From: Escherichia coli O127:H6 str. E2348/69
GTDB lineage: Bacteria > Pseudomonadota > Gammaproteobacteria > Enterobacterales > Enterobacteriaceae
DNA length: 64,000 nt
Assembly (NCBI RefSeq): GCF_000026545.1
Contig: NC_011601.1
Reading direction: 5' to 3' (one strand)
Within the stretch, counting starts at the first letter, position 1; every line of letters begins with the position of its first letter. The position numbers were made by a program. Shown one piece after another: positions 6,001-9,000 of the stretch.

Positions 6001-9000
6001 TTATCTTCCACCACAATATCGCCGGTTAATGCCATCGACTGCGCCCCTGTCAGGAGATAGCTGCCATCTTGCGCTACCGTCAACTGTCCTTCACCCTGAA
6101 TCGAGCCGGAAAAACCGCCCTGGTTTACTGTAACATTGCCGCCTGCGTCGATATTCAAAATGCCATTAGCAAAACCGGTTAATGAGTGCACAAACGTTTG
6201 TTGTGTATTGCCAACATTCAGTTCTGCCTGATACTCAGAATGAACAGTGCTGCCGACCATCAGACCAAAGCAATCCTGCGGATCGCTCTGACAGTGCGTG
6301 TCGCCGACATTCATTAACTCATCGCTGCGCCCCAACGTCACCTCGCCATTCTGGATACTCATCTCGCCGGTAAACGCATTATTGTCGGCATTGAGGACTA
6401 ACTCTCCCGCTCCCTCTTTAACGATGACTCCCGTTCCGGCAAGAGAATCAATCGCGCCATCGTTGCTGGTATTGCCTATTACCAGCGTTTTATCGGCGGC
6501 AATGTTAAATTCAGCCACACTATGACCGATATACATAAAGCCCCCCGCCGCTGCCGTCGCCGAATGGTCATATCCCGAGGCGCTGTTATTTTCATCAATC
6601 ATCACACCATTGTTTTGGTCATAATTATCATCAACAGAAATATCAATAAGATACGGGGATGTGGTGCTGCTGGTATAAATTGCTCCGCCATAACCTTCTG
6701 CATAGTTATTGGTAAAGGAGGTATTATTAATTATCGTTTTTCCTGAAAGATGTGTGTTATCCGTACTATTATCCGTAACATCAATGGCGCCGCCATCCCC
6801 ATCACTATAACTTGTTGATGTATATGCCTGGTTATTATTAAAAGCATCATCACTTAAATAGACGTCATTATTGATGGTATAAATTGCACCGCCTTTGCCG
6901 TCATTAGCGATGTTATTGTGAAATACGGCGTTAGTGACACGTAAATCGGCGGCACCGGTATCATTGGTACCGGCAGAATAGATTGCTCCGCCATAGCCTC
7001 CTGCAACATTACTGTCGAAAATAACATTCGCAAGATTTATCGTTGAGTTTTCTTTAGCAAAGATAGCCCCACCATTATTATATTCGCCACTAACCGAGTT
7101 ATCAGCAAACAGGGTCATCCCTGTTTCATTTTGTGGTGATATCGTAAATTCAGCACCTTGCTGCAAAAATACTGCGCCACCGCTGGCATTATTGGCCATA
7201 CCCGAAAAAATCAACCATTGCCCATCCGCGATGCTCCAGTCCTGCATATTGCCTGAAAGGCTTTGCCTGCTGGCCTGACAGCTCGCTTTGATATCATATC
7301 CCTGACATGAATCAATGACCGCTGCGGCACCGTTACCAGAGAAAAGAGATGCAATCATTGACGGGAGTAAAGATAAATACTCCTTGCGTAGAAAGATAAT
7401 CCGCATATTCATCTAACCATCATTTTCTATAAGATGGCGTATTTAATCGCATTATGCGATATAGGGTATTTTTCTTTTGTAAATTCTGCCCCTGATGTAA
7501 TAACTATTTTGTTATTATCTGATAATTAATTTAGATGTATCACAATTCAAATTATTAACTTTAAGGTAAATCGGTTATATTTAAACTGAATTAAAGCAAT
7601 AAATAATATTCTTATAATAAATACAAAAGTAACAAATTGGCTTAGTATTTAACAATAACCGAATATAAAACAACCATTTCCGACTCAACAATCGCTTACA
7701 CTCGCTTATATATTGACCACAACTGATACATCAGATTATGTGACGACTTGTGCCTAGATCAATTTTGGCAATCATTAGCAACAAGATTAATAAACCATCT
7801 ATATCAATTTACCTATCCTATTTTACCGTTCAAGAATTCACCGAACGGTTATTTTTAACAAATTTTTCTCTTCCCATTGACTTTCCCGGACACCTTGTCT
7901 GACCTAAGGTGCGCGGAAGCCACTTTTTCCTTCCTGAGTTATCCACAAAGTTATGCACTTGCAAGAGGGCCAGTTTCACACTATCTTGCAGTGAATCCCA
8001 AACATACCCCCTATATATAGTGTTATTAGCAGCTTCCCTCACTACAGGTAGTCTGCATGAAGCTATTGAAAAACAGGTACGACATACATGAATCAGAATC
8101 TGCTGGTGACAAAGCGCGACGGTAGCACAGAGCGCATCAATCTCGACAAAATCCATCGCGTTCTGGATTGGGCGGCAGAAGGACTGCATAACGTTTCGAT
8201 TTCCCAGGTCGAGCTGCGCTCCCACATTCAGTTTTATGACGGTATCAAGACCTCTGACATCCACGAAACTATTATCAAGGCTGCCGCAGACCTGATCTCC
8301 CGTGATGCGCCGGATTATCAGTATCTCGCCGCACGTCTGGCGATCTTCCACCTGCGTAAAAAAGCCTACGGTCAGTTTGAGCCGCCTGCGCTGTACGACC
8401 ATGTGGTGAAAATGGTCGAGATGAGCAAATACGATAATCATCTGCTGGAAGACTACACGGAAGAAGAGTTCAAGCAGATGGACACGTTTATCGATCACGA
8501 CCGTGATATGACCTTCTCTTATGCTGCCGTTAAGCAGCTGGAAGGCAAATATCTGGTACAGAACCGCGTGACCGGCGAAATCTACGAAAGCGCCCAGTTC
8601 CTTTATATTCTGGTTGCCGCGTGCCTGTTCTCGAACTACCCGCGTGAAACGCGCCTGCAATACGTGAAGCGTTTTTACGACGCGGTTTCCACATTTAAAA
8701 TTTCGCTGCCGACGCCAATCATGTCCGGCGTGCGTACCCCGACTCGTCAGTTCAGCTCATGCGTGCTGATCGAGTGCGGCGACAGCCTGGATTCCATTAA
8801 CGCCACCTCCAGCGCGATTGTTAAATACGTTTCCCAGCGTGCCGGGATCGGCATCAACGCCGGGCGTATTCGTGCGCTGGGTAGCCCGATTCGCGGTGGC
8901 GAAGCGTTCCATACCGGTTGTATTCCGTTCTACAAACATTTCCAGACCGCGGTGAAATCCTGCTCTCAGGGCGGTGTGCGCGGCGGTGCGGCAACGCTGT

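What the first reader, a model, noticed from the sequence alone, without database searches (positions are those of the whole stretch)
7930..8030. Compact nrdA control region: paired DnaA boxes immediately upstream of tandem NrdR boxes
A perfect DnaA 9-mer (ttatccaca) with a second imperfect box lies 30 bp upstream of two NrdR-like palindromes spaced about 31 bp apart, which overlap the likely -35/-10 elements. The arrangement matches the known coupling of dNTP synthesis to replication initiation and dNTP pools.
Basis: partly seen in the sequence, partly recalled or inferred. Interest (0 to 1): 0.25.

Follow-up and report, generated by a model that had tools for sequence, protein, structure and literature searches.

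The report
Known E. coli nrdAB promoter region

Summary
The window is E. coli E2348/69, and 7930-8030 is the classical nrdAB promoter.

**Confirmed**
- A tandem DnaA box pair sits at 7939-7947 (TTATCCACA) and 7951-7959 (TTATGCACT).
- It is unique in the 64 kb and appeared in 0 of 200 shuffles.
- It is identical to a published K-12 DnaA ChIP-seq site.
- NrdR box 1 (8008-8023) is the best NrdR-matrix hit in the window. All six key bases are kept in 79 of 79 Enterobacterales species.

**Corrected**
- The mapped start site (A7994) puts the -35 at 7959-7964, abutting DnaA box 2.
- Box 1 therefore lies at +15..+30 in the transcribed leader. It does not overlap a promoter hexamer.
- Published 2025 biochemistry shows box 0 + box 1 binds NrdR at >6 µM.
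- Box 1 plus a downstream box 2 binds at about 113 nM.

The general interpretation holds. It is already known.

**Side observations**
- 52 of 79 Enterobacterales species place the DnaA boxes immediately downstream of box 1 instead.
- Box 0 is conserved almost everywhere, whereas box 2 is almost confined to Escherichia.
- P1-family phage-plasmids carry a copy of the DnaA-box and -35 segment.

The parts
7939..7947 (+). DnaA box 1, perfect TTATCCACA, at -55..-47 from the start site
   Evidence: It is the only perfect match in 64 kb. It is the upstream half of the double box gTTATCCACAaagTTATGCACTt listed as a DnaA ChIP-seq site upstream of nrdA in MG1655. It is invariant in 10 E. coli alleles, E. 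albertii and Pseudocitrobacter.
7951..7959 (+). DnaA box 2, TTATGCACT (2 mismatches), at -43..-35; its last base is the first base of the -35
   Evidence: The 3-bp spacing and same orientation are shown. It is invariant in the Escherichia-group alignment. Other type A genera have TTGTTCACT at the same place.
7959..7964 (+). -35 hexamer TTGCAA
   Evidence: It lies 17 bp upstream of TATCTT and at -35..-30 from the mapped start site. TTGCAA, TTGCCA or TTGATA sits at the same offset from box 1 in 26 of 27 type A sequences; in the exception (L069) the promoter lies 1 bp closer to box 1. The spacer sequence varies.
7982..7987 (+). -10 hexamer TATCTT, at -12..-7
   Evidence: Its position relative to the mapped start site comes. 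The hexamer is present in all but one type A genome (TATTTT in L074; in L069 it lies 1 bp closer to box 1). The promoter scores 8 of 12 against consensus, below the 9 of 12 cut-off of the consensus scan, which found nothing here.
7994..7994 (+). Transcription start site of nrdAB, leaving a 94-nt leader in this strain
   Evidence: Kim et al. 2012 (PMC3415461, supplementary file 2) give the MG1655 start site as the last A of ...CTTGCAGTGA, with a 107-nt 5'UTR. The flanking sequence is identical here. This strain lacks 13 bp of the leader.
7976..7991 (+). NrdR box 0 (the historical 'NrdR box 1'), TCACACTATCTTGCAG, at -18..-3; a weak or auxiliary box that overlaps the -10
   Evidence: It matches 5 of 6 key positions, with C instead of A at position 6, and scores 6.9 bits at rank 42. 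The box 0 + box 1 oligo binds NrdR at >6000 nM. A C6A change raises affinity 10-fold. A box with at least 5 of 6 key bases sits 16 bp upstream of box 1 in 76 of 79 species.
8008..8023 (+). NrdR box 1 (the historical 'NrdR box 2'), CCCCTATATATAGTGT, at +15..+30; the core box
   Evidence: It is the top matrix hit in the window at 19.3 bits and matches 6 of 6 key positions. All six key bases are kept in 79 of 79 Enterobacterales species. It is invariant in E. coli alleles. Mutating it abolishes NrdR binding, per Torrents 2007 as cited.
8039..8054 (+).
   Evidence: It is the second-best matrix hit at 13.7 bits. The box 1 + box 2 pair scores 33.0 bits, against a maximum of 22.4 in 100 simulated sequences. 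The K-12 box 1 + box 2 oligo binds NrdR at 113 nM. Positions 1-2 are polymorphic in E. coli (TC, TT, GT, GC), while the core ACTACAGGTAGTCT is invariant.
8088..11947 (+). The regulated operon: nrdA (8088-10373), nrdB (10563-11693) and yfaE (11693-11947)
   Evidence: ORFs are listed. The RefSeq annotation of the identical E2348/69 sequence is.

Best explanation
[quoted passage not shown] It combines two inputs.

**1. DnaA**
- DnaA binds cooperatively as a dimer to the tandem boxes at -55..-35, which abut the -35 hexamer.
- According to the K-12 literature, DnaA-ADP or low DnaA-ATP at these boxes stabilises RNA polymerase and activates transcription.
- High DnaA-ATP also fills a third, ATP-specific weak site and excludes polymerase.
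- nrdAB output therefore tracks the state of the initiator.

**2. NrdR**
- NrdR is a Zn-ribbon and ATP-cone repressor.
- Here those are box 1 (+15..+30) and box 2 (+46..+61) in the initially transcribed leader. Binding there blocks initiation or promoter escape when dATP is plentiful.
- With ATP alone, NrdR forms oligomers that do not bind DNA, and the operon is derepressed.

**Box 0**
Box 0 overlaps the -10. It is at most a weak auxiliary NrdR site in E. coli.

**Shown here**
- The sequence elements, their statistical significance and their conservation.
- Their identity to the K-12 elements.
- Their positions relative to a published start site.

**Taken from the literature, not shown here**
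- Binding of DnaA and NrdR.
- The direction of regulation.
For: - **Locus identity:** 100% match to E2348/69, with nrdA annotated. Every box is identical to K-12 except box 2 positions 1-2.
- **DnaA:** the double box is unique in the window and appeared in 0 of 200 shuffles. The same 23-mer is a DnaA ChIP-seq peak, and mutating either box disrupts binding. The activate/repress switch and the third ATP-specific box are described.
- **Promoter:** the start site is mapped. The -35 and -10 hexamers sit at the same offset from box 1 across the type A species (one species is offset by 1 bp and one has TATTTT), with a variable 17-bp spacer.
- **NrdR, statistics:** box 1 and box 2 are the two best matches in 64 kb to a matrix trained on other operons. 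The pair score of 33.0 exceeds all 100 simulations.
- **NrdR, biochemistry:** 113 nM for box 1 + box 2 against >6000 nM for box 0 + box 1, both requiring ATP+dATP or ADP+dATP. The 15-16 bp linker rule is given.
- **Repressor gene:** nrdR is present in 5424 of 5426 complete E. coli genomes.
- **Within-species footprint:** polymorphisms fall only in the -35/-10 spacer, the linker, box 2 positions 1-2 and the leader.
Against: - No binding or expression data exist for this allele. Its box 2 starts TC rather than K-12 GT, two linker bases differ, and 13 bp of the leader are missing.
- Box 0 keeps at least 5 of 6 NrdR key bases at a fixed 16-bp linker in 76 of 79 Enterobacterales species, against a background of about 1% per position.
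  - This holds even in genera where box 0 does not coincide with the -10.
  - Mutating the equivalent box in Salmonella partly derepresses nrdAB.
  - Dismissing box 0 on the basis of short-oligo binding assays may therefore be too strong.
- The literature says DnaA sets the level of nrdAB expression, not necessarily its cell-cycle timing.
- How NrdR bound at +15..+61 stops transcription is not established.
Confidence: 0.88

Rival explanations
1. One reading: the NrdR operator is the pair box 0 + box 1 (7976-7991 and 8008-8023). It acts by sitting on the -35 and -10 hexamers and occluding RNA polymerase.
For: - Both boxes exist, with a 16-bp linker and 5 of 6 and 6 of 6 key bases. Their pair score of 26.2 also exceeds all simulations, although box 1 drives that score.
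- This is the published prediction of Rodionov & Gelfand 2005 and Torrents 2007.
- Box 0 is conserved in 76 of 79 species.
- The Salmonella NrdR1 box mutation partly derepresses nrdAB.
Against: - The box 0 + box 1 oligo binds E. coli NrdR at >6000 nM, 40-50 times weaker than the other operators. Mutating box 0 does not affect the gel shift of the whole promoter.
- With the start site at 7994, box 1 lies at +15..+30 and no NrdR box touches the -35.
- A TTGCAG/TATATA promoter would need a 20-bp spacer.
Confidence: 0.1
2. A three-box operator. In vivo, NrdR uses all three in-phase boxes (starts at 7976, 8008 and 8039, spaced 32 and 31 bp). Box 1 + box 2 nucleate binding, and a second tetramer or higher oligomer extends to weak box 0. 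That extension covers the -10 and makes repression tighter.
For: - The three boxes are in helical register (coordinates).
- Box 0 scores far above background. Its score is reached at about 3e-4 of positions, and only four positions are in register with box 1.
- Positions C4 and G13 of box 0 lie outside the -10 hexamer, yet they are conserved in at least 90% of both architecture types.
- Pseudomonas aeruginosa nrdAB also carries more than two boxes.
- Partial derepression was seen in Salmonella.
Against: - There is no direct evidence.
- The gel shift of the 185-bp E. coli promoter was unaffected by the box 0 mutation.
- In type A genomes, part of box 0's conservation is explained by the embedded -10.
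Confidence: 0.25
3. The motifs are chance matches in an AT-rich intergenic region, or their conservation reflects the antisense ORF ypaB rather than protein-binding sites.
For: - Single DnaA-like 9-mers are no more frequent than chance.
- K-12 annotates ypaB (47 aa) antisense over 7830-7973.
Against: - The double DnaA box and the NrdR pair both exceed every shuffle or simulation.
- Both are conserved across families of Enterobacterales while the flanking sequence diverges.
- The ypaB start codon is CTG in this allele, and RefSeq does not annotate the gene here.
- ypaB does not reach box 1 or box 2.
Confidence: 0.01

Closest known systems
E. coli K-12 nrdAB promoter (nrdAp), as described by Tuggle & Fuchs 1986, Augustin 1994, Olliver 2010, Torrents 2007 and Rozman Grinberg 2025
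   Same: It is the same locus. DnaA box 1, DnaA box 2, the -35, the -10 with box 0, box 1, and positions 3-16 of box 2 are base-for-base identical.
   Different: The E2348/69 allele differs in several ways:
- G for A at 7916.
- C and G for T and T at 7970 and 7973, in the -35/-10 spacer.
[quoted passage not shown]
- Box 2 starts TC instead of GT.
- One further leader substitution.
- A 13-bp leader deletion (CGGAAAGAATTCC).

About 980 of 5425 complete genomes are at least 99% identical to this allele.
NrdR operators of E. coli nrdHIEF and nrdDG
   Same: Each has two 16-bp partially palindromic boxes with the key bases C4, A6, A8, T9, T11 and G13, a 15-bp linker, and a similar dissociation constant of 110-190 nM with ATP+dATP.
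   Different: [quoted passage not shown] The nrdAB operator lies wholly downstream of the start site, and a third weak box (box 0) lies upstream in register with the other two.
Double DnaA boxes of the E. coli DnaA regulon (polA, purH, dnaA, mioC, rpoH, DARS1/2, datA)
   Same: Each has one consensus 9-mer and one box with about 2 mismatches, in the same orientation and 2-3 bp apart. Both boxes are needed for binding.
   Different: At nrdA the perfect box is the upstream one and the pair abuts a -35 hexamer. At polA, purH and DARS the perfect box is the downstream one (Table 1).
nrdA promoters of most other Enterobacteriaceae and Erwiniaceae ('type B' in this report)
   Same: Box 1 is nearly identical, a box 0-like element lies 16 bp upstream of it, and a perfect TTATCCACA is present.
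   Different: - The DnaA boxes are not upstream of the -35.
- A tandem pair, TTATCCACAgAGTTAgTCACA, starts at the base right after box 1.
- An inverted TGTGGATAA-like box usually follows about 10 bp further on, all within the leader.
- There is no box 2.
- The putative -10 (TAGAAT) lies just upstream of box 0 rather than inside it.
Phage P1/P7 segment upstream of hot (annotated in NC_005856 as '94 pct identical to E. coli DNA region containing two predicted DnaA boxes')
   Same: About 100 bp is 88-93% identical to window 7880-7978. That stretch includes both DnaA boxes, the -35 and the spacer.
   Different: Similarity ends at box 0, so there are no NrdR boxes and no nrd gene. The segment occurs on 235 plasmid records among complete E. 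coli genomes and on 290 PLSDB plasmids.

Membership tests
Double DnaA box (DnaA-regulated promoter) | A 9-mer matching TTATNCACA | tested here: met
   There is a perfect TTATCCACA at 7939-7947.
Double DnaA box (DnaA-regulated promoter) | A second box in the same orientation, 2-3 bp away, occurring more often than chance allows | tested here: met
   TTATGCACT lies 3 bp downstream. The pair is unique in 64 kb and appeared in 0 of 200 shuffles at 2 or fewer total mismatches.
Double DnaA box (DnaA-regulated promoter) | DnaA occupancy in vivo or in vitro | not testable with these tools
   The literature reports a ChIP-seq peak on the identical 23-mer in MG1655, with 14-fold coverage. This strain has not been measured.
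Double DnaA box (DnaA-regulated promoter) | Conservation in orthologous promoters | tested here: met
   The pair is invariant in 12 Escherichia-group sequences. A DnaA box with at most 1 mismatch, perfect in all but one, accompanies nrdA in 78 of 79 species, although at two alternative positions.
NrdR operator | Two 16-bp boxes carrying C4, A6, A8, T9, T11 and G13 | tested here: met
   Box 1 matches 6 of 6 key bases and box 2 matches 5 of 6 (central AG). They rank 1 and 2 by matrix score. Box 0 matches 5 of 6 but ranks only 42.
NrdR operator | A linker of 15-16 bp (starts 31-32 bp apart) | tested here: met
   [quoted passage not shown] The rule comes.
NrdR operator | Location in the promoter or leader of a ribonucleotide reductase operon | tested here: met
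   The boxes lie 34-80 bp upstream of the nrdA ATG.
NrdR operator | The genome encodes NrdR | tested here: met
   nrdR lies outside the window but is present in 5424 of 5426 complete E. coli genomes. E2348/69 was not checked individually.
NrdR operator | High-affinity, dATP-dependent NrdR binding | not testable with these tools
   For K-12, the box 1 + box 2 oligo binds at 113 nM and box 0 + box 1 at >6000 nM. The E2348 variant of box 2 and the linker has not been tested.
Sigma-70 promoter nrdAp | -35 and -10 hexamers with a 16-18 bp spacer, correctly placed before a mapped start site | tested here: met
   TTGCAA, a 17-bp spacer and TATCTT place the -10 at -12..-7 from the mapped start. The match to consensus is only 8 of 12, so the generic scan missed it. 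Both hexamers sit at the same offset from box 1 across the type A species; one species is offset by 1 bp and one has TATTTT.

The most novel reading that the evidence does not exclude
The nrdA control region exists in two alternative wirings across Enterobacterales, and Escherichia is the odd one out within its own family.

**Type A: 26 of 79 sampled species**
- Members include Yersinia, Serratia, Rahnella, Hafnia, Dickeya, Brenneria, Xenorhabdus, E. coli, E. albertii and Pseudocitrobacter.
- The DnaA boxes lie upstream of the -35, a position from which DnaA can activate.

**Type B: 52 of 79 sampled species**
- Members include Citrobacter, Klebsiella, Enterobacter, Kosakonia, Pantoea, Erwinia and one Pectobacterium.
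- A DnaA box pair, usually followed by an inverted box, starts at the base right after NrdR box 1 in the leader.
- From there DnaA could only act as a roadblock, and it would touch or compete with NrdR.

**Associated differences**
- The high-affinity box 1 + box 2 NrdR operator described in 2025 is nearly confined to Escherichia.
- Every other genus keeps only box 0 + box 1, which is the pair that E. coli NrdR binds poorly.
- If real, E. coli K-12 is an unrepresentative model for how DnaA and NrdR are integrated at nrdA.
- The patchy distribution implies that promoters were swapped between lineages. In E. coli the swap may be linked to the yfaL insertion between ubiG and nrdA.
Probability: 0.45. 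Interest if true: 0.4.

Novelty: already known. Interest (0 to 1): 0.1.

Why it matters
For the finding as given, it matters very little. The nrdAB promoter is one of the oldest examples of DnaA acting as a transcription factor, and it is one of the three NrdR-controlled operons of E. coli.

This check adds three practical points.
- Annotation based on the 2005-2007 box pair is out of date. The operator extends to 8054.
- The boxes' positions relative to the promoter are now fixed by a mapped start site.
- Box 0 is deeply conserved, while box 2 is almost confined to Escherichia, and the DnaA boxes move between genera. What E. coli teaches about this promoter should therefore be transferred to Klebsiella, Citrobacter, Enterobacter or Pantoea only with caution. 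That caution applies if NrdR is pursued as an antibacterial target, as the 2025 papers propose.

Tried and rejected
- **Generic sigma-70 scan:** it found no promoter in 7930-8030. The real promoter scores 8 of 12, below the scan's 9 of 12 threshold. The scan was uninformative rather than evidence against a promoter.
- **Single-box DnaA enrichment:** not significant. Only the pair test was informative.
- **Rfam scan of 7400-8300 at E<=1:** no RNA family matched, so there is no known riboswitch or leader element.
- **Inverted-repeat finder:** it reported none. The 10-bp palindrome CTATATATAG in box 1 is a dinucleotide run, which the tool skips.
- **Primary papers:** Torrents 2007, Augustin 1994, Tuggle & Fuchs 1986 and Babu 2017 are not held. 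Their content is cited only through later open-access papers.
- **Third DnaA box:** I could not locate the third, DnaA-ATP-specific box of Olliver 2010 from accessible text. AGATAG on the minus strand over the -10 (7981-7986) is my guess only.
- **Salmonella:**
  - The Salmonella paper prints no sequences in its text or supplements.
  - Its architecture type is therefore unknown.
- **Klebsiella pneumoniae start site:** the table of Kim et al. 2012 is truncated in the held copy. The type B promoter assignment (TTGTxC...TAGAAT) is therefore inference, and the consensus scan did not flag it.
- **Literature search for type B sequence strings:** it returned nothing beyond the E. coli box 1 oligo.
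- **ypaB as an explanation for the conservation:** rejected.
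Full report
**Identity of the locus**

The intergenic stretch 7413-8090 is 100% identical to the chromosome of E. coli E2348/69 (O127:H6). It matches 5425 of 5426 complete E. coli genomes. The gene order is gyrA, ubiG, yfaL(-), nrdA, nrdB, yfaE, inaA, glpQ, glpT. nrdA starts at 8088, so the finding covers the classical nrdAB promoter.

Against K-12 MG1655, region 7700-8100 is 94% identical. The differences are a few substitutions and a 13-bp deletion in the leader.

**Check of the DnaA observation**

- TTATCCACA at 7939-7947 is the only perfect DnaA 9-mer in the window.
- Boxes with up to one mismatch are not enriched: 9 found against 11.7 expected. A lone box therefore proves nothing.
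- The second box, TTATGCACT (7951-7959), lies 3 bp downstream in the same orientation. The two form a 12-bp-period direct repeat.
- A pair with at most 2 mismatches in total and a 2-3 bp gap occurs once in 64 kb. It occurred in 0 of 200 dinucleotide-preserving shuffles, and in 5.5% of shuffles at 3 or fewer mismatches.
- The 23-mer gTTATCCACAaagTTATGCACTt is printed as the nrdA entry in the DnaA ChIP-seq table of Stringer, Fitzgerald & Wade 2024. That paper shows DnaA prefers box pairs 2-3 bp apart and needs both boxes.

**Check of the NrdR observation**

- box 0, TCACACTATCTTGCAG (7976-7991);
- box 1, CCCCTATATATAGTGT (8008-8023).

Their starts are 32 bp apart.

I built a position weight matrix only from the four E. 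coli nrdHIEF and nrdDG boxes given as oligonucleotides in Rozman Grinberg et al. 2025. I then scanned both strands of the window.

| Box | Coordinates | Score (bits) | Rank among 128,000 positions |
|---|---|---|---|
| Box 1 | 8008-8023 | 19.3 | 1 |
| Box 2 | 8039-8054 | 13.7 | 2 |
| Box 0 | 7976-7991 | 6.9 | 42 |

The box 1 + box 2 pair scores 33.0 bits and the box 0 + box 1 pair scores 26.2. The maximum in 100 first-order Markov simulations was 22.4.

**What the literature says about the boxes**

Rozman Grinberg et al. 2025 (PMC12176259) measured NrdR binding loaded with ATP+dATP.

| Oligo | Dissociation constant |
|---|---|
| Originally predicted pair, box 0 + box 1 | >6000 nM |
| Box 1 + box 2 | 113 ± 27 nM |
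| nrdHIEF operator | 138 nM |
| nrdDG operator | 160 nM |

- They conclude that boxes 1 and 2 are the true site.
- They note that the older gel shifts lost binding when box 1 was mutated, but not when box 0 was.
[quoted passage not shown] It attributes this partly to C instead of A at position 6, because a C6A change gives 10-fold higher affinity.
- The 31-32 bp start-to-start spacing, three helical turns, is the general rule.

**Promoter geometry**

The genome-wide start-site table of Kim et al. 2012 (PMC3415461, supplementary file 2) gives the MG1655 nrdA start as the last A of CACAAAGTTATGCACTTGCAAGAGGGTCATTTTCACACTATCTTGCAGTGA, with a 107-nt 5'UTR. In the window this is A7994, leaving a 94-nt leader because of the 13-bp deletion. 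The elements then sit as follows.

| Element | Window coordinates | Position from the start site |
|---|---|---|
| DnaA box 1 | 7939-7947 | -55..-47 |
| DnaA box 2 | 7951-7959 | -43..-35 |
| -35 TTGCAA | 7959-7964 | -35..-30 |
| NrdR box 0 | 7976-7991 | -18..-3 |
| -10 TATCTT | 7982-7987 | -12..-7 |
| NrdR box 1 | 8008-8023 | +15..+30 |
| NrdR box 2 | 8039-8054 | +46..+61 |

- The -35 is flanked by DnaA box 2.
- The TTGCAG...TATATA reading would need a 20-bp spacer.
- The generic consensus scan flagged nothing here, because the real promoter matches only 8 of 12 positions.

**Comparative footprint**

A scan of one genome per GTDB species with the first 400 residues of NrdA returned 80 loci from Enterobacterales, at 90-100% amino-acid identity. 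I anchored each upstream region on its best box 1 match.

- Box 1 keeps all six key bases in 79 of 79 species.
- A box with at least 5 of 6 key bases lies exactly 16 bp upstream of box 1 in 76 of 79 species. The per-position background in these regions is 0.98%. Position 6 is C in 68 of them.
- A box 2 with at least 5 of 6 key bases at a 15-16 bp linker occurs only in E. coli, E. albertii, Pseudocitrobacter and Rouxiella. Other type A genera keep only a left half-site, (A)CACTA.

Within the Escherichia group (10 E. coli alleles, E. albertii and Pseudocitrobacter), several elements are invariant: both DnaA boxes, the -35, box 0 (apart from its last base in E. albertii) and box 1. [quoted passage not shown] E. 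albertii and Pseudocitrobacter change the centre of box 2 but keep C4, A6, T11 and G13.

This is the footprint expected of functional sites. It also shows that box 0 is under constraint beyond what the -10 hexamer explains, because C4 and G13 lie outside that hexamer.

**Two architectures (side finding)**

- **Type A (26 species plus K-12).** A perfect DnaA box lies upstream of TTGCAA-17 bp-TATCTT. It starts 69 bp before box 1 in Escherichia and Pseudocitrobacter, and 77-79 bp before box 1 elsewhere. The perfect box is therefore about one helical turn closer to the -35 in E. coli.
- **Type B (52 species).** These are most Enterobacteriaceae, the Erwiniaceae and Pectobacterium zantedeschiae.
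  - There is no upstream pair.
  - TTATCCACAgAGTTAgTCACA starts at the base immediately after box 1.
  - An inverted TGTGGATAA-like box follows about 10 bp later in most of them, absent in several Pantoea.
  - The conserved CTTGT...TAGAAT lies just upstream of the box 0-like ACTCACCATATAGCGT.
- One species (L020, Enterobacter sp. Bisph1) has no DnaA box within one mismatch and fits neither type.
- The type B promoter assignment is inferred, not mapped.
- In Klebsiella and Serratia, ubiG lies directly upstream of nrdA. In E. coli the autotransporter gene yfaL is inserted between them.
- I found no paper in the held library that prints the type B sequences.
- Salmonella was not sampled.

**Mechanism**

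The steps below are taken from the literature, not shown here.
- DnaA bound to the pair can activate transcription, as DnaA-ADP or low DnaA-ATP, by stabilising RNA polymerase.
- It can also repress, when high DnaA-ATP fills an additional ATP-specific site.
- DnaA sets the level of expression rather than its timing.
[quoted passage not shown] NrdR loaded with ATP alone forms non-binding oligomers or filaments.
- Repression from +15..+61 presumably blocks open-complex formation or promoter escape. This step is inference, and the papers themselves call the mechanism unresolved.

nrdR is present in 5424 of 5426 complete E. coli genomes.

**Verdict**

- The feature is real, statistically secure and already known.
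- The specific NrdR pair and the promoter overlap are outdated or wrong.
- Interest in the finding as given is low.
- The comparative observations are recorded as side findings that may deserve a separate look.

Noticed in passing
L004-L082 (nrdA upstream regions), compared with window 7930-8060: There are two alternative nrdA promoter architectures in Enterobacterales. In type A (26 species, including Escherichia) the DnaA boxes lie upstream of the -35. In type B (52 species, including Citrobacter, Klebsiella, Enterobacter, Pantoea and Erwinia) a tandem DnaA pair starts right after NrdR box 1 in the leader, usually followed by an inverted box. The distribution is patchy: Escherichia and Pseudocitrobacter are type A inside a type B family, and Pectobacterium zantedeschiae is type B inside a type A family.
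   Followed up: partly
window 7976-7991 and 8039-8054; L004-L082: NrdR box 0, which E. coli NrdR binds poorly in vitro, is conserved with at least 5 of 6 key bases at a 16-bp linker in 76 of 79 species. The high-affinity partner, box 2, is found essentially only in the Escherichia group. This is in tension with dismissing box 0 as non-functional.
   Followed up: partly
window 7880-7978; L083 3977-4075; L084 (phage P1, NC_005856, 86399-86454): P1/P7-family phage-plasmids carry an approximately 100-bp copy of the nrdA promoter's DnaA box pair, -35 and spacer, at 88-93% identity. They account for 235 plasmid records among complete E. coli genomes and 290 PLSDB plasmids. The copy lies near hot (a Pol III theta homologue), and similarity ends exactly where NrdR box 0 begins. 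The P1 record already notes the similarity to an E. coli region with two DnaA boxes.
   Followed up: yes
window 7830-7973 (- strand): The K-12 gene ypaB (b4605, 47 aa) lies antisense over the DnaA boxes and the -35. In this allele its start codon is CTG because of the T-to-G change at 7973. RefSeq does not annotate it in E2348/69, and one other strain is annotated with an internal stop. It is probably not a conserved gene.
   Followed up: yes
window 8068/8069: This allele has a 13-bp deletion (CGGAAAGAATTCC) in the nrdA leader relative to K-12, which shortens the 5'UTR from 107 to 94 nt. About 980 of 5425 complete E. coli genomes are at least 99% identical to this allele over 7900-8100. The rest carry the longer K-12-like leader.
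   Followed up: partly
window 7413-7700: The distal part of the yfaL-nrdA intergenic region is much more variable among E. coli than the promoter-proximal part. Over 7413-8090, most genomes (4461 records) are only 80-90% identical, whereas over 7900-8100 most are 95-99% identical. This region holds the AT-rich, Fis and upstream elements described for K-12. I did not examine it.
   Followed up: no
L083 93-3384 (plasmid NZ_OZ501614.1): A 111-kb P1-like plasmid carries the chromosomal housekeeping genes metG and apbC next to humD.
   Followed up: no
L016 1-1500 (Pseudocitrobacter MAG): This is the only non-Escherichia genus with the Escherichia-type promoter, including box 2. It has no ubiG and no long ORF within 1.4 kb upstream of nrdA, unlike Klebsiella and Serratia, where ubiG is adjacent.
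   Followed up: no
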